29,344 nucleotides of DNA from Candidatus Zixiibacteriota bacterium (GCA_014729565.1 WJJR01000319.1:1-29344), one strand, 5' to 3'; shown: positions 19,444 through 29,344, counted from the first letter of the stretch. Translations and numbers: made by a program. Notes: generated from the letters alone by a model not told the origin.

Positions 19444-19464
19444 GGCTGTACCGTCCTTTCGCCC

Positions 19465-19902
19465 TTAGAGGCTCGGCAGTTCCGCGCACTTGGTTGATTC
19501 GGGTTCAGTGAACAACAATGGACTCTTTAGATCGTCCGAGCCGGAGGCAAAGCCACCGTCCGGAACCGCGCTTCCCTCCGGAGTCGTACGGATCGGGAAT
19601 TTAAAGCGCTTCAAGGTGCCGTTGCGGAACTTGATCGTCCACAGAATGCTGTCCGACGAGCGCATCGGCGTCACCATGCCGTTCAACGGCATGAAGTCCG
19701 CATAACCGCGCAGTTCCATCGCCTGCACCGGGCAAATCTTGACGCAGCACATGCACTCCCAGCACATCGCGGGGTCTTGGTTGTAGGCTTTCATCTTCTC
19801 CTTGTCCAAGACCATCAGATCGTTGGGACAGATGTACTGGCAGGCGGTCTTGTCGAGCGCCTTGCACCCGTCACATTTGTCTGGGATTACATAACTTGGC
19901 AT
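19465..19902 (-). CDS. aprB: APS reductase beta subunit
   Basis: Motifs MPSYV..DKCDGC...CQYICP, CWECMCCVKICP and WTIKFRNGTLKRFKFPIRTTPEG. GGAGGT RBS. Confidence 0.96.
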   Translation of the reverse strand: MPSYVIPDKCDGCKALDKTACQYICPNDLMVLDKEKMKAYNQDPAMCWECMCCVKICPVQAMELRGYADFMPLNGMVTPMRSSDSILWTIKFRNGTLKRFKFPIRTTPEGSAVPDGGFASGSDDLKSPLLFTEPESTKCAELPSL

Positions 19903-19965
19903 TGGTACCTCCCAATTGGCCGAAAACCCTGTGACTGTTATATCTTTATGCGTTAACCTTCCCAC

Positions 19966-21189
19966 TTACCGTTTCGCATCGCCCGTGGCGTGCGCGTGCA
20001 TCTTCACTTCCACTCTCTCGCCATCTTTCAACCCCGCGTAGTACTCGCGCAGAATCGCGAGCACTTCCGGACGGCTGAATTCGGCCGGGACATCCCCGCC
20101 TTCGGAGAGCGCCTTGCGCAGAGCCGTACCCGAGAGGAACAGACGATCCTCTTTGCCGTGCGGACAGGTCTTCATCGAACACATGCCGCCGCACTTGTAG
20201 CACCAGAACGTCCAGTCAATCGGCAGCATCTTGCACTTCAGGGACCCTTCCGGCAACTGGTGGAAGATCTCCTGCGCGTCGAACGGCCCGTAGTAGTCGC
20301 CCACACCGGCATGGTCACGGCCGATGATCATGTGCGTGCAACCGAAGTTCTGACGGAACACCGCGTGCAGCAGTCCTTCGCGCGGGCCGGCGTAGCGCAT
20401 GTCGAGCGGATAACCGCCCTGCACCACTCGGCTCTTGTCGAAGTAGTTCTCGACCAGTGTGTCAATGCAGCGGACACGCACGTCGGCAGGAATGTCGCCG
20501 GGCTTCAACTGGCCGACCAACTGGTGAATGTACACACCGTCAGACACCTCAATCGCAATCTTCGCAAGGTACTCGTGCGACCGGTGCATTGGGTTGCGCA
20601 ACTGCATCGCCGCAATTGTCTTCCAGCCCTTCTCCTCGAAGAGCTTGCGGCTCTCGGCCGGACGCTGGTAGATGGCGGCAAAGTCTTTGGGGAAGTACGA
20701 TTCCGACAGCACCTTCACCGGACCGCCCAGGTTCCACGCCTTCTGCTCCATGACCTTCTGCACGCCGGGATGCTCGGTGTCGGCCGTCGTGAAGACGTGC
20801 TTGCATTCGAAGTCCTTGTCGATTTGGTACGACTCGTTGACCGTCATGGTCCCCATGACTTCATTGGTCTCACCGGACACGAGGCAGATCTCCGTTCCCG
20901 GGGCAATCTTCTCATCGTGAGATAAGGTGATCGGAATCGGCCAAAACGTGCCGTTGGCCATCTTCATGTCCTGGCAGACGCCTTTCCAGTCGTCCTGCCC
21001 CATGAAGCCTTCGAGTGGCGTAAACCCCCCGATCCCCAAAAAGATCAAGTCCCCGGTTTCCCGTGAGGACATGACCACTTTCGGGAGGGTCTCCGCCCGT
21101 TTCAATTCCTCCTCGCGCTCCTTACCATCCAGGAGGAGGATCCGCAGCGTGTCACTGCCGTGGGGAGATATCAACTCCGATTTTTGCAT
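19966..21189 (-). CDS. sat: Sulfate adenylyltransferase (ATP sulfurylase)
   Basis: Motifs [25 protein letters not shown] and [13 protein letters not shown]. An alternative GTG start lies at 21195; RBS GAGGAGAGGT. Confidence 0.96.
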
Positions 21190-21313
21190 GATCACAACCT
21201 CTCCTCATTAGGGGTTTGCTGTTCGTCCCATGCCGTCAGCCGATCGCAGCAGATTCAGCCTCCTTTTAATCCATAATTTGGTACGCTGAACCCCACTCAT
21301 TTGATCGGCTTTA

Positions 21314-21331
21314 TTGTTATCAAATTCACAA
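21314..21331. promoter_or_regulatory. Candidate Rex (NADH/NAD+ sensor) operator upstream of sat
   Basis: TTGTTAT-CAAA-TTCACAA matches the Rex consensus TTGTGAA-N4-TTCACAA at 12 of 14 positions, about 125 nt upstream of sat. Confidence 0.55.
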
Positions 21332-21605
21332 ACATACCGCTTTCTGACAACACTTATGACAACCGCAATCCCCACCCTCAAACAGTTTGTCTCAAAATCA
21401 TCGAAACCGAGGTCCGGTATCTGTCATCACCATCTGGTAGTGCAACCCCAACTTGCCTTTTTTCAATGACTTGCACTCTCTGGAACCTCGCCGATTCGCG
21501 ATGCCAACCTCTTCCCCGCGCCATCAGCAGCGGAGCTGTGGGCCCGTCTACGCAGCGTCGGGCAAGCAGTACCGTAGAGAATCGCCGATTCTATGTCAAG
21601 TCGGC

Positions 21606-21623
21606 TTGTGAAATATATGTCAA
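21606..21623. promoter_or_regulatory. Second, weaker Rex-like site in the divergent intergenic region
   Basis: TTGTGAA-ATAT-ATGTCAA matches the consensus at 11 of 14 positions, with one perfect half-site. Confidence 0.35.
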
Positions 21624-21985
21624 GACTTGTCAATTTTAGCGCTTCTATGACAAGATGAAAACGATGTTCAATATCGTCGCTACTAGCGCCCATGTATTGT
21701 CAAAACCGTGACCAATTTGACCCACATTGCCAGCACATGTGCGTTACTCTCAATGGAGGTCACAACTGATCGGATGACCGAAGAACGAAAACCGGGAAGT
21801 CGAACCGTGTCGTACCGCGACACACAGAATCGAGCCACCCTATGACCACACACACACAGCGGCGGGACGGGCCGGCCTACTCCGCTGAGAGTCTGTCAAC
21901 TCCATCACCGGCCGGCTTGCATCGGTCCACAACGCCGAGTAAGTTCCCCCCGGATATGAAGACCCAAAGCACGGAGAGTGCCGTC

Positions 21986-22255
21986 GTGACCACAAATGAC
22001 GTCAATGACAAGTGTCCACACTGCGGAATGACCATGTCGAAATGGATGCCGCCGGATGACTCCGGCTGGAATCCCGTCTACCAGTACATCTGCTTCAATG
22101 ACGAATGTCCGTACTACATCCAGGGCTGGGAATGGATGCTCACGCACTATGAACAGAAAGCCTCCTACCGGCACCGTTTCGATCCACACACCGGTGATAC
22201 CGGACCGCTGGCGGTCTGGTCACCCAACGCCCACCGTGGCCGCATCATCGACTGA
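21986..22255 (+). CDS. Small 4-Cys zinc-finger-like protein (Ogr/Delta-like annotation class)
   Basis: CPHC...CFNDECPYY...GWEWM...SYR motifs. The GTG start was chosen for the GGAGAG 7 nt upstream; in-frame ATGs at 21842 and 21956 are alternatives. Confidence 0.7.
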   Translation: MTTNDVNDKCPHCGMTMSKWMPPDDSGWNPVYQYICFNDECPYYIQGWEWMLTHYEQKASYRHRFDPHTGDTGPLAVWSPNAHRGRIID

Positions 22256-22266
22256 GGGGAGGCACC

Positions 22267-23109
22267 ATGCGTGAAGTTGAAAAACTCAAAGAGGAAATCC
22301 TCAAGGACTATCCCCGGTTGTCGAAGGACGACACCTTCGCTTTCGCCTGCCACTCCGGTGTGCCCTGCTTCAACGATTGCTGCGGCGACGTGAACATCTT
22401 CCTGACGCCCTACGATGTCATCCGTCTGAAGACGGCGCTGGGCATCTCGTCGCAGGAGTTCCTCGATCGCTATACGCTCATGCCGTTCGACAAGAACCTG
22501 GGCTATCCGGTCATCCTGTTGCAAATGACCGACGATGACCGTAAGAGCTGTCCCTTTGTCAAAGAGGACGGTTGTTCCGTCTACAATGACCGCCCCTGGT
22601 CGTGCCGCATGTATCCGTTGGGCATGGCGTCGCCGGGCGAAGGCAGCGAGGATCTCTCCGACGAGTTCTATTTCCTGTTGAAAGAATCGGTTTGCAAGGG
22701 CTTCCGCGAACCGAAGGAGCAGACCGTCGACGAGTGGCTGGTCGACCAGGGGATCGTCGAATACGACGAAATGGGCAGGGACTTCAAGGATCTGACCCTC
22801 CACCCGTTTTTTCAAGAAGGCTCCAAGCTGACCCCCGAGAAGATCGAGATGTTCTTCATGGTCTGCTACAACATCGATCGCTTTCGCGACTTCGTCTTCA
22901 AGAGCAGCTTCCTCAACAAGTTCGAAGTCGATGAAGACACCGTCAATGCGATCCGAGAAGATGATGTGGCCCTGCTGAAGCTCGGGTACAAGTGGTTGCG
23001 GTTTGCGTTATTCGGCGAAAAGTCTATGACGGTCAAAGGCGATGTCCTCGCCGACAAAGAGCAGGAACTGCGGATGAAACAAAAGCTGCCGCCCAAGGCC
23101 GGCAAATAG
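22267..23109 (+). CDS. YkgJ / UPF0153 family cysteine-cluster (putative Zn or Fe-S) protein
   Basis: Motifs CHSGVPCFNDCC, LTPYD, CPFVKEDGCSVYNDRPWSCRMYPLG and CKG. RBS GAGGGAGG. Confidence 0.82.
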   Translation: MREVEKLKEEILKDYPRLSKDDTFAFACHSGVPCFNDCCGDVNIFLTPYDVIRLKTALGISSQEFLDRYTLMPFDKNLGYPVILLQMTDDDRKSCPFVKEDGCSVYNDRPWSCRMYPLGMASPGEGSEDLSDEFYFLLKESVCKGFREPKEQTVDEWLVDQGIVEYDEMGRDFKDLTLHPFFQEGSKLTPEKIEMFFMVCYNIDRFRDFVFKSSFLNKFEVDEDTVNAIREDDVALLKLGYKWLRFALFGEKSMTVKGDVLADKEQELRMKQKLPPKAGK

Positions 23110-23129
23110 CGAATACCCTGTGATACACC

Positions 23130-23169
23130 ACGGGCCGTCGAGACCAGCTCAGACTCGGCGGCCCGTTTC
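23130..23169 (+). terminator. Putative intrinsic terminator after the YkgJ gene
   Basis: 13-bp stem acgggccgtcgag / ctcggcggcccgt with one G-U and an 11-nt loop, followed by only a short T run. Confidence 0.5.
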
Positions 23170-23270
23170 GCTGAACTCACCTCTGCAAATATCCTTATCC
23201 ATTGTCAATTATCAACTTATCATCACCCCCGTTCGCTTTTTCAAATTCTTGTGCATTTTTTCTTTAGTTT

Positions 23271-23293
23271 GAAGTGTAGCTTTCGTATACTTC
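23271..23293 (+). promoter_or_regulatory. Putative -10 box (TATACT, 23286-23291) embedded in an inverted repeat upstream of the MerR gene
   Basis: GAAGTGTA-N7-TATACTTC is a 7/8 dyad in an AT-rich stretch, ending 31 nt before the start codon. Confidence 0.4.
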
Positions 23294-23324
23294 GGTAGTC
23301 ACAACGCTGTTTGGAGGTGGTCGA

Positions 23325-23846
23325 ATGGCTCACTCGAGCAGTCGCGCAAAAGAAAAATTTCACAAGATCGCCGCAACTGAACGTCGCCGGGCGACACCGG
23401 AACCCGAAGATGACTGGGATCCGATCATGGCGATTGGCGTCGCTGCATCGATGACCGGCCTCTCGGTTTCGGCGCTACGGAAGTACGAATCCGAGGGTCT
23501 GCTTACCTATCACCGCACGCCGACCGGCCGCCGCCTTCTGTGCCGCGCCGATATTCGGCGCATCAAAACGATCCAGCATCTCATCAATGAAGAGGGACTC
23601 AACATTGAGGGAATTCGGCGACTGCTGGCCTTGCTCCCCTGCTGGGATCTGACCCACTGCTCCCAGGACACCCGCCGCGAGTGCCTCGCCACCAAACACA
23701 GTCATCAGCCCTGCTGGATGGTGCGCAAAACGAAATGCGCCAAGGCGGGGTTCAACTGCAATGAATGCGATGTCTATCGCTACGGCACATACTGCATCGG
23801 AACAATGAAATCACTCGTTCACGGCACGGATGACGACACGCCGTGA
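23325..23846 (+). CDS. MerR-family HTH regulator with C-terminal 8-Cys two-CW domain
   Basis: HTH segment IGVAASMTGLSVSALRKYESEGLL...RTPTGRR...GLNIEGI. Tail CWDLTHC...C...PCW...C...CNEC...C. RBS GGAGGTGG. Confidence 0.82.
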   Translation: MAHSSSRAKEKFHKIAATERRRATPEPEDDWDPIMAIGVAASMTGLSVSALRKYESEGLLTYHRTPTGRRLLCRADIRRIKTIQHLINEEGLNIEGIRRLLALLPCWDLTHCSQDTRRECLATKHSHQPCWMVRKTKCAKAGFNCNECDVYRYGTYCIGTMKSLVHGTDDDTP

Positions 23847-23869
23847 TCGGAGGAAGAGCGAGGCGCCAG

Positions 23870-24421
23870 ATGAATGAGACGATCCGCATTGGCGACACCA
23901 CGGTCCGCTTAATCAAAGGGGACATCACCGACCAGGAGATCGAGGCCTTCGTATACTACGCCCGCCATAATCTGGCGCTCGGCTCGGGATTTGGCACGGC
24001 CATCACAGTCCGCGGCGGCCCCGACATTCAGAAGGAACTCGACACTCTTGGACCGATCGAAACCACCGAAGTCGTCGTATCCAACGCTGGTGAGCTGAAA
24101 GCGGACAAGATCATTCATGCGGTTGGGCCGCGATTCCAGGAAGTCGATCTTCCGGCCAAATTGGCAACCACCATCCGCAATTGTCTCTCCGCCGCCCGAG
24201 AGCATGACATCTCGTCTCTCGCCTTCCCGCCTATGGGCGTCGGCTTCTATGGCGTGCCCCTCGATTTGTGCGCACGGATCATGCTGGCGACATTTCAGGA
24301 AGTCTTGAGACAAAGCCCCGGTATGCGGGAGATTGTCATCTGCGCCAACGATTCCCGTGAATACGAACCGTTCCGGCAACTGCTGCAGAACTTCAGCACG
24401 ACAAAGGAGTATGTCCAATGA
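23870..24421 (+). CDS. Macro domain (Appr-1-p / ADP-ribose-binding fold) protein with atypical active-site loop
   Basis: Motifs LIKGDIT, AITVRGG, IIHAVGP and LAFPPMGVGFYG. The stop overlaps the next start (ATGA at 24418-24421). Confidence 0.85.
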   Translation: MNETIRIGDTTVRLIKGDITDQEIEAFVYYARHNLALGSGFGTAITVRGGPDIQKELDTLGPIETTEVVVSNAGELKADKIIHAVGPRFQEVDLPAKLATTIRNCLSAAREHDISSLAFPPMGVGFYGVPLDLCARIMLATFQEVLRQSPGMREIVICANDSREYEPFRQLLQNFSTTKEYVQ

Positions 24422-25116
24422 GCGAGTCACTCCATTTCGCCGAACACACCCTCCAGGAAATCGCCCTGGTCTTCATGGCGCTTGTGTACACGACACGGGT
24501 GCTGTGGCTGATCCGGTTTAATGCCTCGAAGGAACGGCAGCCGGAAACCGGCTTACCCGACACATCGGCGCGCAAAGGCATTCTCTACTCATGGTTGAAT
24601 GTGGGCATGCCGTGGTCGATGGAGAGTTCGCGAACGAAGCCGTTTATGTACGGCACCTTTGTCATCTTCCATCTTGGCGTCGCCGCTGCCATCGGACTGT
24701 CCTTCATTATACCGTATGCTCCCCAGGTCCTGGAGACGCCGCTGGTGGGTCCGGTACTGCAGATCATCATTGGCCTGGCCTGTCTGGTTGGTGTTCTGCG
24801 CATCATTCGCCGTGTCGGCGACAAACACATGCGCGCGATCAGCAGCCCCGATGACTACTTCTCGATTCTTCTGCTCACCGTCTGGTTGTTCTTCGGCACA
24901 CTGGCAGTACCCAATAGCACCGCCAATGGCGAAGGGATTCTGCTGACGTTTTTCGTCTTAACGGCGTTCTTCCTGATCTACGTCCCGTTCAGCAAGATCT
25001 CCCATTACCTCTACTATCCCTTCTCACGCTACTACGTGGGCAAGACACTGGGATACAGAGGGTCCTATCCGTTACGCCGCGGACCCGCGCCGCGACGCAC
25101 TGCCACCACCACCTGA
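24418..25116 (+). CDS. TmcC/NarI/HdrE-like membrane cytochrome b subunit
   Basis: About five hydrophobic segments with FH (H85), SSPDDYF and YVPFSKISH (H196), typical NarI-family landmarks. The MPWSMES segment resembles TmcC. Confidence 0.75.
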   Translation: MSESLHFAEHTLQEIALVFMALVYTTRVLWLIRFNASKERQPETGLPDTSARKGILYSWLNVGMPWSMESSRTKPFMYGTFVIFHLGVAAAIGLSFIIPYAPQVLETPLVGPVLQIIIGLACLVGVLRIIRRVGDKHMRAISSPDDYFSILLLTVWLFFGTLAVPNSTANGEGILLTFFVLTAFFLIYVPFSKISHYLYYPFSRYYVGKTLGYRGSYPLRRGPAPRRTATTT

Positions 25117-25135
25117 GACACTGAGGGAGATAGCG

Positions 25136-26890
25136 ATGAGTCCAGCGACCAATACAGAGCGCTCGCACAAAGCCCAGAAAGTTCTCGAACGATTCGACAA
25201 GAAGCTGAGCCGCCAGGTGGTGAGTTCGCTGGTGTCGTGTGTGCACTGCGGCATGTGCACCGATAGCTGCCACTATGTCCTGGCCAACCCCGACGATCCC
25301 AGCTACGCTCCGGCCTACAAAGCGGATCGCATTCGGCGCATCTTCAAACGCCATTTCGATTGGACCGGACGCGTCGCGCCGTGGTGGGTGCACGCCAGGA
25401 GCGTCTACACCGATGATGATCTGGAGGAACTGAAGGACATCGTCTTCGGCAAGTGCACCAACTGCCGACGCTGCACCATCAACTGCCCGATGGGTGTCGA
25501 CTTTGCCACCTTCAATCGCATGGCGCGCGGCCTGCTGGTATCAGTCGGAGTGATGCCTGAGGGCGTCTCCGTCGTCAGCAAAGACCAGTGGGAAATCGGC
25601 AATCAGATGGGGGTATTGAAAGAGGACTACATCGAGACACTGGAATGGATGGCCGAGGAACTGCAGATGGAACTGAACGATCCGGAGGCGACCATTCCGA
25701 TCGACGTCCCGGATTGCGACATTGTCTACTCCATCAATCCGCGCGAAATCAAATACGACCCACGCACCATTGCCGACGCGGCCAAAATCTTCTACGCCGC
25801 CGGCGAACACTGGACGATGCCCAGCGAAGGCTGGGACATGACCAATTTCGGCCTGTTCTCCGGTGACGACGATCTCGGCGGCGCGGTCGCGCGCCGTCTC
25901 TACGAAAAGGTCAGCGACTTGCGCGGTAAGACGCTGGTGATTTCCGAATGCGGCCACGGGTACCGCTCCACACGCTGCGAGGGTCCCAACTGGGCCAAGC
26001 AGGACATCAACGATTTCGCGATGGAAAGCTCAGTCAGTACGATGTTGCGCTACATTAGAGACGGACGCATCACCGTCGACAAGACCCGCAACACCACTCC
26101 GGTAACCTTTCATGACTCCTGCAACAACGCGCGCAGTTGCGGATTTTTCGAGGAACCCCGCGAACTACTGAACCTGGTCTGTAGCGATTTCCGTGAGATG
26201 TATCCCAACCGTGCCGAGAACTACTGTTGCACCGGCGGCGGCGGGGCGATGTCGATGTCCGAATACACACCGCGCCGTTTGAAATCGGCGAAGATTAAGG
26301 CGGAACAACTCAAAGCCACCGGCGCCAAGATCGTTGTCACCTCCTGCCACAATTGTGTTGACGGACTCAGCGACTTGATTCGCCACTACAACCTGGACAT
26401 GAAAGTGACCCAACTCGTCAATCTCGTTGCCGATGCGTTAGTGATTGAACCCAAGGCTGAAGCACCCGAGGCGGCAGTTCCTGTTGCCACGGCAGACGGC
26501 GAGCTGGCGGGATACACGATTCTTGTTGCCGACGATGAACCCGATCTCGTCACCTTCGTCTCCACGCTGCTGGAAGACCACGGCGCGACCGTCATCGGCG
26601 CATCAAATGGCGAAGAAGCGTTGTCGCTGGCCCGTGCGCACAAGCCCGATCTGATTACCCTCGACATCACCATGCCGGGCATGAGCGGCGACGAAGTCTT
26701 CGTAGCGCTGCGTAAGGATCCCGACTTAAGGGGCATCAAGGCCTGCATCATCACCGGACGGCCCGAATTGCGACGGCTCATCTATGAACGTCCGGTGACA
26801 CCGCCGGAGGGATATATCGATAAGCCGGTCGATGAAGAATCGATTCTGACCAACGTGAAGAAGATACTCGAAGTGCATCACGAGAGTTAA
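25136..26890 (+). CDS. TmcB/DsrK/HdrD-like (Fe-S)-binding protein fused to a C-terminal response-regulator receiver domain
   Basis: Motifs CVHCGMCTDSC, CTNCRRCTINC, ECGH and FHDSC...YCCTGGGG...SCHNC. After an Ala/Pro/Glu linker comes ILVADDEPD...LITLDITMPG...IITG...IDKP. Confidence 0.88.
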   Translation: MSPATNTERSHKAQKVLERFDKKLSRQVVSSLVSCVHCGMCTDSCHYVLANPDDPSYAPAYKADRIRRIFKRHFDWTGRVAPWWVHARSVYTDDDLEELKDIVFGKCTNCRRCTINCPMGVDFATFNRMARGLLVSVGVMPEGVSVVSKDQWEIGNQMGVLKEDYIETLEWMAEELQMELNDPEATIPIDVPDCDIVYSINPREIKYDPRTIADAAKIFYAAGEHWTMPSEGWDMTNFGLFSGDDDLGGAVARRLYEKVSDLRGKTLVISECGHGYRSTRCEGPNWAKQDINDFAMESSVSTMLRYIRDGRITVDKTRNTTPVTFHDSCNNARSCGFFEEPRELLNLVCSDFREMYPNRAENYCCTGGGGAMSMSEYTPRRLKSAKIKAEQLKATGAKIVVTSCHNCVDGLSDLIRHYNLDMKVTQLVNLVADALVIEPKAEAPEAAVPVATADGELAGYTILVADDEPDLVTFVSTLLEDHGATVIGASNGEEALSLARAHKPDLITLDITMPGMSGDEVFVALRKDPDLRGIKACIITGRPELRRLIYERPVTPPEGYIDKPVDEESILTNVKKILEVHHES

Positions 26891-26892
26891 CG

Positions 26893-28323
26893 ATGTGTAG
26901 CGGTGCGGCGCCCGACGGCGCATACAAGCAGTACTTCGATTCGATGCCGTGTTTCTTGACGGTGCAGGACCGTAATCTGCGCGTCATCGACGCCAATGCG
27001 CGGTTCGAAGAGAAGTTCGGCGATTACCGCGGTCGCTACTGCTACCAAGTCTACAAACAGCGGCCGGAAAAGTGTGAAGTCTGCCCGGTCGAGCGGACGT
27101 TTCGGGATGGCGAGTCACATCGCACCGAGGAACTGGTCAAGACCTTGCAGGGCGATGACGTCTGGGTGATTGTCTACACAACCCCGATTCGCAATGAGCA
27201 CGGCGACATCACCTCGGTGATGGAGATGTCGACCGATATCACCGAGATCAAACTGCTCCACAAACATTTGCGCGAAAGCCAGGAGAAGTACCGACTCCTG
27301 TTCGAAGAAGTCCCCTGTTACATCTCGATTCAGGATCGCGACCTGAACATCGTCGCGGCTAACCGCCTGCACCGCGAGGCCTTTGGCACGGCGTACGGAC
27401 AAAAGTGCTACGAGGTGTACAAACACCGGGCCAAGGCTTGCTCACCCTGTCCGGTGCACGAAACCTTCGCGGACGGTCAGTCACGGGCTCACGAAGAGGT
27501 GGTCACAGCCCAGGACGGTTCGCGCATGAACGTGTTGGTCTACACCGCACCACTGCGCAATGTCGATGGTGAGGTGGAGCACGTGATTGAAATGAGCACC
27601 GACATCACACAGATCCGCGAACTGCAAGACAAGCTCTCGTCGGTCGGCATGCTGATCAGCACCATCTCTCACGGCATCAAAGGCTTACTCAATGGACTGG
27701 ATGGGGGAATCTATCTCCTCAACTCGGGACTGGAGAAGAACGACCGCGCACGGATCGACAAGGGCTGGGACATGACACTTCGCAATGTCCGGCGCATCCG
27801 AACGCTGGTCATGGACATCCTGTACTACGCCAAGGATCGTGAACCCGAATACGAGCCGATCTCTGCGCGACAGATTCTGGAGGAGGTGTGTGGCTCACTA
27901 CAAGAACGTGCACAAAAATTGAACATCTCCTTGAGCGTCGATGCGAAGGACACCGGAGAATCCCATGCCGATCCGCAGATGATTCGCTCACTACTGGTCA
28001 ATCTGATCGAAAACGCGTTTGATGCCTGCCGGATTGACGGTGCGAAACCGGACCATACGGTGCGTGTTTCACTTGATGAGATCGATGGAGCAGTGCGTTT
28101 CACAATTGCCGACAATGGCATCGGTATGGATCAGGAAACACGTGAAAAGGCATTCAGTCTGTTCTTCTCGTCGAAGGGAGCAGGTGGAACCGGACTCGGC
28201 CTGTTTATCGCAAATAAGATTGCGCAAGCACACGGCGGCAGCATTACGCTGGAATCGGTAGAAGACGAAGGAACTACATTTGTTGTAGAACTTCCCCGCC
28301 AACAGCACCCTCCAATTGACTGA
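26893..28323 (+). CDS. Cytoplasmic PAS-PAS sensor histidine kinase
   Basis: Two PAS repeats, H-box ISH260GIKG, N-box NLIENAFDA, G1 DNGIGM, F-box FSLFFSSK and G2 GTGLGL. No TM segment and no receiver domain. Confidence 0.9.
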   Translation: MCSGAAPDGAYKQYFDSMPCFLTVQDRNLRVIDANARFEEKFGDYRGRYCYQVYKQRPEKCEVCPVERTFRDGESHRTEELVKTLQGDDVWVIVYTTPIRNEHGDITSVMEMSTDITEIKLLHKHLRESQEKYRLLFEEVPCYISIQDRDLNIVAANRLHREAFGTAYGQKCYEVYKHRAKACSPCPVHETFADGQSRAHEEVVTAQDGSRMNVLVYTAPLRNVDGEVEHVIEMSTDITQIRELQDKLSSVGMLISTISHGIKGLLNGLDGGIYLLNSGLEKNDRARIDKGWDMTLRNVRRIRTLVMDILYYAKDREPEYEPISARQILEEVCGSLQERAQKLNISLSVDAKDTGESHADPQMIRSLLVNLIENAFDACRIDGAKPDHTVRVSLDEIDGAVRFTIADNGIGMDQETREKAFSLFFSSKGAGGTGLGLFIANKIAQAHGGSITLESVEDEGTTFVVELPRQQHPPID

Positions 28324-28344
28324 CACTTTCATTCTCACACCTGT

Positions 28345-28380
28345 TCAACTGAGTCAAAATGCAAATATTGACAAAGTTGA
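28345..28380. promoter_or_regulatory. 36-bp imperfect dyad upstream of the third DsrM-type gene, containing a TTGACA
   Basis: TCAACT-ga-GTCAAAAT-gcaa-ATATTGAC-aa-AGTTGA, with TTGACA at 28368-28373. Confidence 0.45.
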
Positions 28381-28387
28381 CCAGCGG

Positions 28388-28410
28388 AAAAGCGTTCTGC
28401 GCTTTTTCTT
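28388..28410 (+). terminator. Small A/T-flanked hairpin, possible terminator
   Basis: aaaagcg-ttctg-cgctttt followed by tctt. Confidence 0.35.
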
Positions 28411-28467
28411 ATAGGCGCACGTGCCGTATTAAACGATGACAACGTTGGTCGGCTATGGGAGGACTGT

Positions 28468-29344
28468 ATGAGCGCACTGCAATGGGTTAGCTACGTGGCG
28501 ATTGTCTTCTTTGTGGTCGCGGTGGCGGTGAAAATGATCCGCATCGCCCGCATGCCGGTGCATCTGCGCTGGGATCTGTACCCGATTCCGCACGAGAAAG
28601 GTAAAGGCCACTACGGCGGCTCGTACTTCGAGGAAATCGACTGGTGGACCAAGCCGCGCGAATTCGCCCTGATGGCCGAGCTGACCGAAATGGCCAAGGA
28701 GATCATCCTGGTCAAAGGGGTCTATCGCCACAACCGTCCGCTCTGGTATTTTTCCTTCCCGTTCCACTTCGGCCTCTACTGCCTGGTCGGATTCACCGTG
28801 CTCCTTCTCATCGGCGGGATCATGCAGGCGGCCGGGATGACGGTCACCGCCGCCACCGGCAACGGCTTCGCCGTGGCGGTGCACTATGCCACCCTGGTGC
28901 TGGGTTATGTCGGCTGGATCCTGAGTCTCGTGGGCGGTGTTGGCGTTCTGCTGAAACGGATGACGAACCGCGACATGCGCGCCGCCACCGTGCGCGGCGA
29001 CTATCTGAATCTGGTGTTTCTGCTGGCCGTGTTTGTGACCGGCATGCTGACGCTGACCACGGTCGAACAATCACTGGCGACCTGGCGCGGATTTATCGGC
29101 AGCCTGATCACGTTCCAGGCGGCGGGAGCGCTGCCGACGATCATGGCGGTGCACCTCTGGCTCGTCGTGGTTTTGCTGCTCTATTTCCCGTTCACCCATA
29201 TGACCCACATGGTCAGCAAGTATTTTACCTACCACACGGTGCGTTGGGAGGATGAGCCGAACATCCGCGACGGGCGCATTGACCGTGCGGTTCAGCAAGC
29301 ATTGGGATACAAGATCAACTGGTCGGCGCCGCACATCAAGTCCG
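28468..29344 (+). CDS. dsrM: Second DsrM-type (HmeC / Gram-positive-like) NarI-family cytochrome b, 3' end outside the window and absent from the ORF track
   Basis: Manual translation from the ATG after GGGAGG gives MSALQW...PVHLRWDLYPIPHE...YGGSYFEEIDWW...PFH...YFPFTHMTHMVSKYFTYHTVRWEDEPN...WSAPHI, open to the window end. Confidence 0.8.
   Translation, partial: MSALQWVSYVAIVFFVVAVAVKMIRIARMPVHLRWDLYPIPHEKGKGHYGGSYFEEIDWWTKPREFALMAELTEMAKEIILVKGVYRHNRPLWYFSFPFHFGLYCLVGFTVLLLIGGIMQAAGMTVTAATGNGFAVAVHYATLVLGYVGWILSLVGGVGVLLKRMTNRDMRAATVRGDYLNLVFLLAVFVTGMLTLTTVEQSLATWRGFIGSLITFQAAGALPTIMAVHLWLVVVLLLYFPFTHMTHMVSKYFTYHTVRWEDEPNIRDGRIDRAVQQALGYKINWSAPHIKS

What the first reader, a model, noticed from the sequence alone, without database searches (positions are those of the whole stretch)
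23870..24421. Macrodomain with a rewired catalytic loop, translationally coupled to a cytochrome b
Seen: EAFVYYAR-HNLALGSGF replaces the canonical DAIVNAAN-xxLxxGGGV, so both conserved Asn are lost, while GDIT, HAVGP and the phosphate-binding loop (MGVGFYG) remain. Its stop overlaps the cytochrome b start (ATGA). Known: the NAAN and GGG motifs support ADP-ribosyl and O-acetyl-ADP-ribose hydrolysis in MacroD. Inference: a non-catalytic adenine-nucleotide reader (ADP-ribose, NAD-related, or possibly APS/AMP) acting as a subunit of the redox module.
Basis: partly seen in the sequence, partly recalled or inferred. Interest (0 to 1): 0.65.

Follow-up and report, generated by a model that had tools for sequence, protein, structure and literature searches.

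The report
Rewired macrodomain tied to redox module
A small macrodomain protein that has lost the residues normally used to cleave ADP-ribose is, in well over a hundred uncultured sulfate-reducing bacteria from some ten phyla, always the first gene of the same three-gene membrane redox unit, an association not found in the literature searched.

Summary
Window 23870-24421 (+) encodes a 183-aa macrodomain (Pfam 86.5 bits; AF2 pLDDT 92.8; TM 0.92 to a MacroD structure). Both Asn of the NAAN motif are replaced (VYYAR). The MacroD Asp and water-site Gly equivalents are also replaced. The adenine Asp (GDIT), both Gly-rich phosphate loops and HAVGP remain. Its stop overlaps the next start (ATGA).

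This is a monophyletic subfamily, not a one-off. The replacement residues (F27, Y/F29, Y30, S39, F41, G42, M122, F126, Y127) are themselves nearly invariant.

The subfamily is confined to one context. In 79 of 80 genome loci the macro gene is followed by an HmcE/TmcC-like membrane protein and an HmcF/TmcB-like Fe-S/CCG protein. Conversely, 54 of 54 metagenome loci found through the CCG protein have the macro gene upstream. A canonical NAAN relative sits in an unrelated context.

The unit occurs almost only in genomes with aprA or dsrA (53 of 54 in the host phylum). A same-genus genome lacks it cleanly.

Best reading (about 0.55): a non-hydrolytic, ADP-type ligand-binding partner of this quinol-linked disulfide-reductase-like module. 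Ligand, loss of activity and physical contact are all inferred. The APS/AMP idea is untested. No paper in the held library links a macrodomain to such a complex.

The parts
23870..24421 (+). Macrodomain gene (183 aa), first gene of the conserved trio
   Evidence: Pfam Macro 86.5 bits. AF2 pLDDT 92.8. Foldseek TM 0.91-0.92 to OiMacroD.
23918..23929 (+). GDIT motif (res 17-20). D18 is the Asp that binds adenine N6 in other macrodomains (Af1521 D20, recalled).
   Evidence: D18 is invariant in 109 of 109 and 136 of 136 family members.
23942..23998 (+). Rewired strand beta3 and loop 1: E25-AFVYYARHNLALGSGFG-T43. Both Asn of NAAN are replaced (Y29, R32). The OiMacroD G37 equivalent is S39 and the D40 equivalent is G42.
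   Evidence: Alignments to 2DX6 and 3VFQ. Column counts. Residue roles from PMC5413906.
24227..24259 (+). Loop 2 (res 120-130, PPMGVGFYGVP): retained Gly-rich phosphate loop with hydrophobic + aromatic pair F126-Y127
   Evidence: G123, G125 and Y127 are nearly invariant. Y127 corresponds to OiMacroD Y134, which stacks the distal ribose.
24418..25116 (+). HmcE/TmcC-like NarI-family membrane protein (232 aa). Its start overlaps the macro stop (ATGA).
   Evidence: NCBIfam HmcE 50.7 and TmcC 47.9 bits, both below cut-off. About 5 TM helices; H85 and H196 are the only invariant His. It follows the macro gene in 79 of 80 loci.
25136..26890 (+). HmcF/TmcB/DsrK-like Fe-S + CCG protein fused to a receiver domain (584 aa)
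   Evidence: NCBIfam HmcF 329, TmcB 310 and DsrK 236 bits, all below cut-off. 16 invariant Cys; receiver fused in 116 of 139 orthologues. 75-87% identity across phyla.
26893..28323 (+). Soluble tandem-PAS histidine kinase, last gene of the cassette in this window
   Evidence: Pfam PAS_4 x2 + HATPase_c. Present downstream in 46 of 52 metagenome loci with enough DNA.
23325..23846 (+). MerR/HspR-like regulator with a Cys-rich tail, 23 nt upstream of the macro gene
   Evidence: Pfam MerR_1. It is retained in the cassette-less congener, so it is not part of the indel.
23834..28456 (+). Extent of the four-gene indel (macro, HmcE-like, HmcF-like/REC, kinase) relative to a same-genus genome
   Evidence: blastn of the window against G339: homology runs 19452-23168 (89%), 23194-23833 (74%) and 28457-29342 (87%). 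The four genes are absent there.
28384..28410 (+). Terminator-like hairpin plus T-run after the kinase gene
   Evidence: Consensus scan. The count of such sites in the region is not above chance, so the weight is low.

Best explanation
The gene encodes a macrodomain that keeps the ADP-binding half of the pocket. That half comprises the adenine Asp, both Gly-rich loops, and the loop-2 aromatic residue.

The distal-ribose/catalytic half has been replaced by a different, aromatic-rich residue set that is itself strictly conserved.

I read it as a non-hydrolytic ligand-binding protein, a 'reader' type. It works as the dedicated cytoplasmic partner, either a third subunit or a tightly coupled accessory, of a two-subunit membrane module. 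That module consists of a NarI-family HmcE/TmcC-like membrane protein and an HmcF/TmcB/DsrK-like Fe-S/CCG protein. By homology the module is a quinol-linked thiol/disulfide oxidoreductase.

Binding of an ADP-containing metabolite whose distal group is not handled as in MacroD enzymes would either tune the module or present that compound to it.

The trio is an accessory, horizontally mobile add-on to the dissimilatory sulfate-reduction gene set. It is usually wired to its own receiver/kinase pair.

Shown: fold, residue pattern, monophyly, obligate synteny, restriction to apr/dsr genomes, and indel behaviour.

Inferred: loss of hydrolysis, ligand binding, ligand identity, physical association, and the chemistry of the module.
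For: - Fold and pocket: Pfam; AF2 pLDDT 92.8; Foldseek TM 0.92 to ADPr-bound OiMacroD and 0.89 to macroH2A1.1.
- D18, G38, G40, G123, G125, Y127 and H83 are invariant or nearly so.
- Neither NAAN position is Asn in any of the 136 locus-derived members. Y30 is present in 135 of 136, G42 in 136 of 136, and S39 in 117 of 136.
- In OiMacroD the equivalent N30A, D40A and G37V changes each cut kcat/Km by about 72-86%.
- PMC10221186 lists Asn/Ser at this site among the features needed for hydrolase activity.
- The replacement residues are conserved, which argues for a new function rather than decay.
- 108 such sequences form one clade with support 100/98.
- Synteny: 79 of 80 genome loci, 54 of 54 reverse loci, and diverged members at 41-46% identity.
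- Intergenic gaps are mostly -8 to +40 nt.
- In Nitrospirota the trio stands alone between housekeeping genes, without the two-component genes.
- It is the only Macro domain in this genome.
- Cassette against aprA or dsrA: 53 of 54 in the phylum sample. aprA is present in 45 of 50 plus 5 of 5 cassette genomes, spanning several phyla.
- A same-genus genome lacks exactly these four genes.
Against: - No biochemical data exist.
- Single mutations of the Asn, Asp or Gly do not abolish MacroD activity. Af1521 and TTHA0132 naturally lack the Asp.
- The loop-2 Tyr that positions the distal ribose is retained, so residual or altered hydrolysis cannot be excluded.
- Half of the family has Gln at the second Asn position, which might partly substitute.
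- The tethered macro-HmcE co-fold gave pTM 0.50 with a disordered linker, so no predicted interface.
- No natural fusion of the macro domain to either partner was seen.
- One locus (L010) has the macro gene without the partners.
- Synteny shows a functional link, not physical contact.
- Genomes in the co-occurrence tables are related, so the Fisher values overstate significance.
Confidence: 0.55

Rival explanations
1. It is still an enzyme: a hydrolase of an ADP-ribose derivative (OAADPr, ADP-ribose-1''-phosphate, or a mono-ADP-ribosylated partner). It would use substrate-assisted or water-mediated catalysis with a changed residue set, and be co-transcribed because its substrate or target belongs to the redox module.
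For: - The ADP-binding elements and loop-2 F126-Y127 are retained.
- MacroD catalysis tolerates loss of the Asp and partly of the Asn.
- About half of the members have Gln at the second Asn site.
- The genome has sirtuins, so OAADPr is made.
Against: - All three positions whose mutation lowers OiMacroD activity are changed together (R/Q32, S39, G42). The first Asn and the next Ala are replaced by bulky Tyr/Phe and Tyr.
- No ADP-ribosyltransferase gene lies in the cassette in any locus examined.
- All NCBIfam deacetylase/hydrolase equivalog cut-offs are missed by a wide margin.
Confidence: 0.17
2. It is a ligand-independent structural or assembly subunit (a pseudo-macrodomain). The remodelled aromatic groove would be a protein-protein surface for the HmcF-like or HmcE-like partner rather than a small-molecule site. 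This would resemble the way YmdB acts on RNase III through protein contact.
For: - Obligate synteny and tight gene spacing.
- Gain of conserved aromatic residues in the groove.
Against: - Invariance of the adenine Asp and of both Gly-rich phosphate loops is hard to explain without a nucleotide ligand.
- The tethered co-fold with HmcE found no interface.
- The HmcF-like partner could not be tested.
Confidence: 0.15
3. It is the input sensor of the adjacent two-component system. A metabolite-bound macrodomain would modulate the soluble PAS kinase or the receiver fused to the CCG protein.
For: The kinase and receiver accompany the trio in most loci: 46 of 52, with the receiver fused in 116 of 139.
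Against: - The macro gene persists with an unchanged pocket in about ten Nitrospirota loci, and in 23 of 139 orthologue sets, that have no receiver or kinase.
- Its constant partners are therefore the two redox proteins.
Confidence: 0.08
4. It is a defence or toxin-antitoxin macrodomain (DarG-like), or a chance neighbour.
For: Macrodomains are common in such systems (general knowledge).
Against: - No PADLOC hit for the macro protein or its partners.
- No toxin partner is present.
- Synteny is conserved across phyla.
Confidence: 0.02

Closest known systems
TTHA0132 of Thermus thermophilus (PDB 2DX6) and the NCBIfam 'ADP-ribose-binding protein' group (NF001667)
   Same: - Nearest solved sequence relative among single-domain proteins (E 1.9e-20).
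- Same length class.
- Ala/Gly instead of the MacroD Asp, and an R/K-GGP motif.
- The nearest canonical environmental relatives (34-38% identity) are of this type.
   Different: - TTHA0132-type proteins keep both Asn (IVNAAN), have V-A where this family has F-G, and I-S-T-G-I/V-F where it has M-G-A-G-F-Y.
- NF001667 scores 119.9 against a cut-off of 252.
- The relative examined lies between dUTPase and NifU genes, not next to a redox module.
MacroD-type hydrolases (OiMacroD 5L9K, human MacroD1/2, E. coli YmdB)
   Same: Best structural matches (TM 0.87-0.92). They share the GDIT Asp, the Gly loops, and the aromatic residue of loop 2.
   Different: - The N30, G37 and D40 equivalents are R/Q, S and G.
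- NCBIfam deacetylase equivalogs score 66-101 bits against cut-offs of 200-291.
Reader macrodomains (macroH2A1.1, PARP14 macrodomain 2, PARP9 macrodomain 2)
   Same: They have lost hydrolase features but keep ADP-ribose binding. PARP14 MD2 lacks the second Asn in the alignment. macroH2A1.1 is a close structural match (TM 0.89). Loss of activity is recurrent in evolution (PMC10221186).
   Different: They are eukaryotic chromatin or PARP contexts with different replacement residues. None is linked to a membrane redox complex.
TmcABCD and HmcABCDEF complexes of Desulfovibrio; DsrMK; HdrDE
   Same: The two partner proteins are of the TmcC/HmcE and TmcB/HmcF/DsrK types. All CCG and ferredoxin cysteines are conserved. 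Response-regulator genes also accompany tmc and hmc operons: the NCBIfam DVU0259 family hit, and rrf1 (recalled).
   Different: - There is no cytochrome c subunit (TmcA/HmcA) and no TmcD in the cassette.
- All scores are below equivalog cut-offs.
- The membrane subunit keeps a single His pair.
- A macrodomain gene is not reported for any of these complexes in the papers searched.

Membership tests
Macro domain superfamily (Pfam PF01661) | Profile match above the gathering score | tested here: met
   86.5 bits against 22, covering 6-118 of 118 profile positions.
Macro domain superfamily (Pfam PF01661) | Three-layer alpha/beta/alpha macro fold | tested here: met
   AF2 pLDDT 92.8, pTM 0.89. Foldseek TM 0.91-0.92, rmsd 1.4-1.6 A to OiMacroD. 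Atlas model pTM 0.92.
MacroD-type ADP-ribosylhydrolase / OAADPr deacetylase | Asn at the end of strand beta3 (OiMacroD N30; second Asn of NAAN) that holds the distal ribose | tested here: not met
   R32 here. In the family: R 59, Q 55, S 6, T 6 of 136, and never N.
MacroD-type ADP-ribosylhydrolase / OAADPr deacetylase | Loop-1 Gly that leaves room for the substrate-coordinated water (OiMacroD G37), and the Asp (D40) | tested here: not met
   S39 (117 of 136) and G42 (136 of 136). Roles are taken from PMC5413906. The Asp is also absent in the active Af1521, so this alone is not decisive.
MacroD-type ADP-ribosylhydrolase / OAADPr deacetylase | Hydrophobic + aromatic pair in loop 2 | tested here: met
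   F126-Y127. The criterion is from PMC10221186.
MacroD-type ADP-ribosylhydrolase / OAADPr deacetylase | NCBIfam equivalog score above cut-off | tested here: not met
   NF001664 scores 101.1 against 200; NF001660 scores 65.9 against 271; NF001662 scores 55 against 215.
MacroD-type ADP-ribosylhydrolase / OAADPr deacetylase | Hydrolase activity | not testable with these tools
   Needs purified protein.
ADP-ribose-binding macrodomain (ligand binding in general) | Adenine-binding Asp of GDIT and Gly-rich loops 1 and 2 | tested here: met
   D18, G40 and G123 are present in 136 of 136, G125 in 135 and G38 in 134. Actual binding is not testable here.
NCBIfam NF001667 'ADP-ribose-binding protein' (TTHA0132-like) | Equivalog score above cut-off | tested here: not met
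   119.9 bits against 252.
Tmc / Hmc transmembrane redox complexes (for the unit the macro gene belongs to) | TmcB/HmcF and TmcC/HmcE equivalogs together with a periplasmic multihaem cytochrome c subunit | tested here: not met
   All four models score below cut-off. No cytochrome c gene is seen in the cassette in the window or in annotated loci.
Defence-system macrodomains (DarG and similar) | Match to a PADLOC model and an adjacent toxin/effector | tested here: not met
   No PADLOC hit. The neighbours are redox and signalling genes.

The most novel reading that the evidence does not exclude
The macrodomain is the substrate- or cofactor-presenting subunit of a new kind of membrane reductase. 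It would hold the ADP moiety of a nucleotide-linked sulfur compound, such as CoA disulfide or persulfide, or APS. The aromatic residues that replace the distal-ribose site would guide the non-ribose arm to the CCG iron-sulfur site of the HmcF-like protein. The trio would then be a quinol-linked reductase of an ADP-tagged thiol or sulfur species in sulfate reducers.

In the alignment to a recalled coronavirus Mac1 sequence, the family-specific R163 falls just after the adenine-side residues. That is where a 3'-phosphate of CoA or PAPS might lie. This is only a lead, because no coordinates were available to check it.
Probability: 0.12. Interest if true: 0.85.

Novelty: new variant of a known kind. 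Interest (0 to 1): 0.62.

Why it matters
Macrodomains are known as readers and erasers of ADP-ribosylation. None has been tied to a respiratory membrane complex in the papers searched.

Here a distinct, conserved subfamily is an obligate partner of an undescribed HmcEF/TmcBC-like module. That module travels with the sulfate-reduction genes of the uncultured lineages now thought to carry much of environmental sulfur cycling: Zixibacteria, Nitrospirota, Acidobacteriota, Gemmatimonadota, Planctomycetota, Ignavibacteria and others.

If the protein binds a nucleotide metabolite, two consequences follow. It would link adenine-nucleotide or NAD-derived signals to quinol-dependent thiol/disulfide chemistry. 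It would also give a handle on the still unknown substrates of the TmcB/HmcF class.

The protein is small and soluble and the hypotheses are sharp, so the question is directly testable.

Tried and rejected
1. The cassette replaces QmoC as the membrane partner of AprAB. Rejected: qmoC is above cut-off in three of the five cassette genomes tested. In the window's own genome it is present as two halves at contig ends.

2. This could not be separated: aprA is in 48 of 54 and dsrA in 49 of 54.

3. Defence or TA macrodomain. Rejected by PADLOC and context.

4. Sensor of the two-component system. Unlikely, because the trio exists without it.

5. Test of physical contact. An artificial tether was made by reading through the stop between in-frame macro and HmcE genes in 39 loci (A4). 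Co-folding gave pTM 0.50 with both domains folded and the linker disordered. This is inconclusive: the alignment is shallow, a monomer model was used, and the HmcF-like partner could not be tethered.

6. Natural fusions. None was seen among the best 150 representatives. The long hits there are eukaryote-type multi-macro proteins.

7. Expression evidence. No sequencing run was listed for the cassette.

8. Literature. Four full-text searches and two papers on novel sulfate reducers gave no mention of a macrodomain with Tmc, Hmc, DsrK, dsr or apr. Pereira et al. 2011 is not held.

9. Model coordinates are not exposed, so pocket geometry and docking could not be examined.

10. Cultured hosts. All named carriers seen are metagenome-assembled genomes.

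Full report
**What is there**

Window 23870-24421 (+) is an ORF of 183 aa that starts at an ATG preceded by GAGG and ends at a TGA. That TGA shares three bases with the ATG of the next ORF (…ATGA…). It matches Pfam Macro at 86.5 bits against a cut-off of 22.

HMMER alignments to two solved macrodomains, TTHA0132 (2DX6) and PARP14 macrodomain 1, agree that V28-Y29-Y30-A31-R32 stands where they have V-N-A-A/S-N. They also place L37-G-S-G-F-G-T-A-I45 where TTHA0132 has L-G-A-G-V-A-G-A-I.

The GDIT motif, IIHAVGP and the second Gly-rich loop (PPMGVGFYG) are present. An AlphaFold2 model built on 120 homologues has mean pLDDT 92.8. It superposes on ADP-ribose-bound Oceanobacillus MacroD with TM 0.92, on macroH2A1.1 with 0.89 and on MacroD2 with 0.87.

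**What the changed residues mean**

The OiMacroD study (PMC5413906) gives the following.
- N30 holds the distal ribose. N30A lowers kcat/Km by 72%, mainly through Km.
- D40A lowers kcat/Km by 86%.
- G37V lowers kcat fourfold by displacing a substrate-coordinated water.
- Y134 of the beta6-alpha4 loop stacks the distal ribose.
- None of the single mutants is dead, and Af1521 and TTHA0132 naturally lack the Asp.

Spacing from the NAAN motif puts this protein's R32, S39, G42 and Y127 at those four positions. A second paper lists an Asn/Ser and a Gly flanking loop 1, plus a hydrophobic-aromatic pair in loop 2, as the features needed for hydrolase activity (PMC10221186). The first feature is missing here and the others are present.

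The Asp of GDIT (D18) is the residue that binds adenine N6 in Af1521 (D20) and in coronavirus Mac1 (D22). That assignment rests on my own knowledge.

The picture is an intact ADP-binding half and a replaced distal-ribose half. Loss of hydrolysis is likely but is an inference.

**A conserved subfamily, not a decayed copy**

More than 1,380 proteins match at E <= 1e-10, the best at 55-63% identity. In 109 such sequences, and independently in 136 sequences cut from fetched loci, the replacement residues are themselves nearly invariant:

| Position | Residue | Count of 136 |
|---|---|---|
| 27 | F | 120 |
| 29 | F or Y | 133 |
| 30 | Y | 135 |
| 39 | S | 117 |
| 41 | F or Y | 134 |
| 42 | G | 136 |
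| 89 | F | 136 |
| 122 | M | 134 |
| 126 | F or Y | 136 |
| 127 | Y | 135 |
| 163 | R | 107 |

The second Asn site is R or Q. No member has Asn at either NAAN position.

The nearest canonical relatives (34-38% identity) keep IVNAAN, GVAGAI and ISTG(I/V)F. In a maximum-likelihood tree the 108 rewired sequences form one clade with support 100/98. This indicates a single origin followed by purifying selection on a new pocket that is richer in aromatic residues.

A scan of one genome per species found 300 relatives, and 80 loci were fetched. They come from Zixibacteria, Ignavibacteria, Fibrobacterota, Planctomycetota, Nitrospirota, Acidobacteriota, Gemmatimonadota, Latescibacterota, Elusimicrobiota, Riflebacteria and Thermodesulfobacteriota.

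In 79 of the 80 loci the macro gene is followed at about +550 nt by the HmcE-like gene, and then by the HmcF-like gene wherever the contig reaches that far. The HmcF-like protein is 75-85% identical across these phyla. The one exception, L010, ends abruptly after the macro gene.

The reverse test used the HmcF-like protein to fetch 80 metagenome loci. All 54 with enough upstream DNA carry the macro gene.

Three diverged members (41-46% identity; FVYYAK, FVFDIT, FVFYAR) are also followed by both partners. A canonical NAAN relative lies between dUTPase and NifU genes.

The gap from the macro stop to the next start lies between -8 and about +40 nt in most of 138 loci. The -4 overlap seen in the window occurs in 15 of them.

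**The partner proteins**

The partners are HmcE/TmcC-like and HmcF/TmcB/DsrK-like, but all scores fall below NCBIfam cut-offs.
- The membrane protein has about five predicted TM helices and only one invariant His pair.
- The CCG protein keeps 16 invariant Cys and carries a fused receiver domain in 116 of 139 cases.
- A tandem-PAS kinase and a stand-alone receiver usually follow.

About ten Nitrospirota loci have only the trio. In L073 it sits between tRNA-synthetase and methylmalonyl-CoA genes, with the macro pocket unchanged. The constant unit is therefore macro + membrane protein + CCG protein.

**Link to sulfate reduction, and mobility**

The window itself carries sat-aprBA-dsrAB-dsrN-dsrL-like-dsrMKJOP on the other strand. 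The host genome belongs to the same phylum set as two Zixibacteria chromosomes.

In 285 species genomes of that phylum, 54 have the macro subfamily:
- 48 of these have aprA.
- 49 have dsrA.
- 53 have one or the other.
- Among the 231 genomes without the macro gene, 55 have aprA or dsrA.
- Odds ratios are 28 and 35, but the genomes are related, so the p-values overstate significance.

In other cassette genomes spanning several phyla, aprA is present in 45 of 50 plus 5 of 5. Only about half of the apr/dsr-positive Zixibacteria have the unit, so it is accessory.

A same-genus genome (99% complete) matches the window at 87-89% DNA identity on both sides. It lacks exactly the four genes from macro to kinase, and its MerR gene is followed directly by the NarI-like gene.

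qmoC is present in most cassette genomes tested, so the unit does not stand in for QmoC.

**How it most likely works**

The best-supported reading is a non-hydrolytic, ADP-type ligand-binding macrodomain. It would serve as the cytoplasmic partner of a quinol-linked thiol/disulfide oxidoreductase of the TmcBC/HmcEF/DsrMK kind.

Three further steps are inferred:
- that a ligand is bound;
- that the ligand differs from ADP-ribose at its distal end;
- that the proteins touch.

A crude contact test tethered macro and HmcE by reading through the stop in 39 loci where the genes are in frame. It gave pTM 0.50 with both domains folded. That is no support and no refutation. The HmcF-like protein is the likelier docking partner, and it could not be tested.

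The rivals, listed with their evidence elsewhere in this report, are an altered hydrolase, a ligand-free structural subunit, a sensor for the kinase, and a defence macrodomain. PADLOC gives no hit for the macro protein or its partners.

**Novelty**

Four full-text searches and targeted reading of papers on novel sulfate reducers found no paper that joins a macrodomain with Tmc, Hmc, DsrK, dsr or apr. This holds only for the held library. All carriers seen are metagenome-assembled genomes.

I class this as a new variant of a known kind: a macrodomain subfamily with a rewired, conserved pocket and an obligate link to an undescribed membrane redox module.

Noticed in passing
window 23834-28456 versus L085 (G339:C6:58000-76000): The four genes from macro to kinase form a clean indel relative to a same-genus genome. 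There the MerR gene is followed directly by the NarI-like gene. The window's MerR is only 78% identical in protein to the congener's, against 90-96% for the flanking genes. That hints at recombination through MerR copies, which flank the cassette on both sides in L024.
   Followed up: partly
window 25136-26890 and loci L001-L170: The HmcF-like protein is unusually conserved, at 75-87% identity across about ten phyla, with 16 invariant Cys. It is fused to a complete receiver domain in 116 of 139 orthologues. An enzyme directly fused to a phospho-receiver is uncommon.
   Followed up: partly
window 24418-25116: The HmcE-like membrane protein keeps only one invariant His pair (H85, H196), plus invariant M20 and M68. 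It may bind a single haem b or use other ligands.
   Followed up: partly
window 28468-29343; L085; L083 15729-18814: A second conserved unit consists of MerR, a NarI-like membrane protein and a DsrK-like CCG protein (27-30% identical to the HmcF-like one), with a receiver after it in L085. It often lies beside the macro cassette and is present in the congener that lacks the cassette.
   Followed up: partly
window 21842-23109; L083 3234-4411: A pair formed by an Ogr/Delta-like zinc-finger protein and a CxxCxxCC (YkgJ-type) protein recurs next to sat/apr. In L083 it sits between aprA and qmoA.
   Followed up: no
G000 contigs C408:6674-7213 and C268:3582-4172: The genome's qmoC is split between two contig ends. 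The absence of qmo next to aprBA in the window therefore does not mean it is absent from the genome.
   Followed up: partly
G001/G232 (record CP070796): This single-contig Zixibacteria genome has aprA, qmoC and the macro cassette, but gave no dsrA match. It is rated 72% complete, so the absence is not certain.
   Followed up: no
L010 3330-4705: This is the only locus where the macro gene lacks its partners. A Cys-rich HTH/receiver regulator precedes it, and the strand switches right after an extended C-terminus. It could be a rearrangement or an assembly join.
   Followed up: partly
L087 665-1093: In one diverged member the trio is preceded by an Rrf2-family regulator. This recalls the rrf genes of the Desulfovibrio hmc operon (recalled, not checked).
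   Followed up: no
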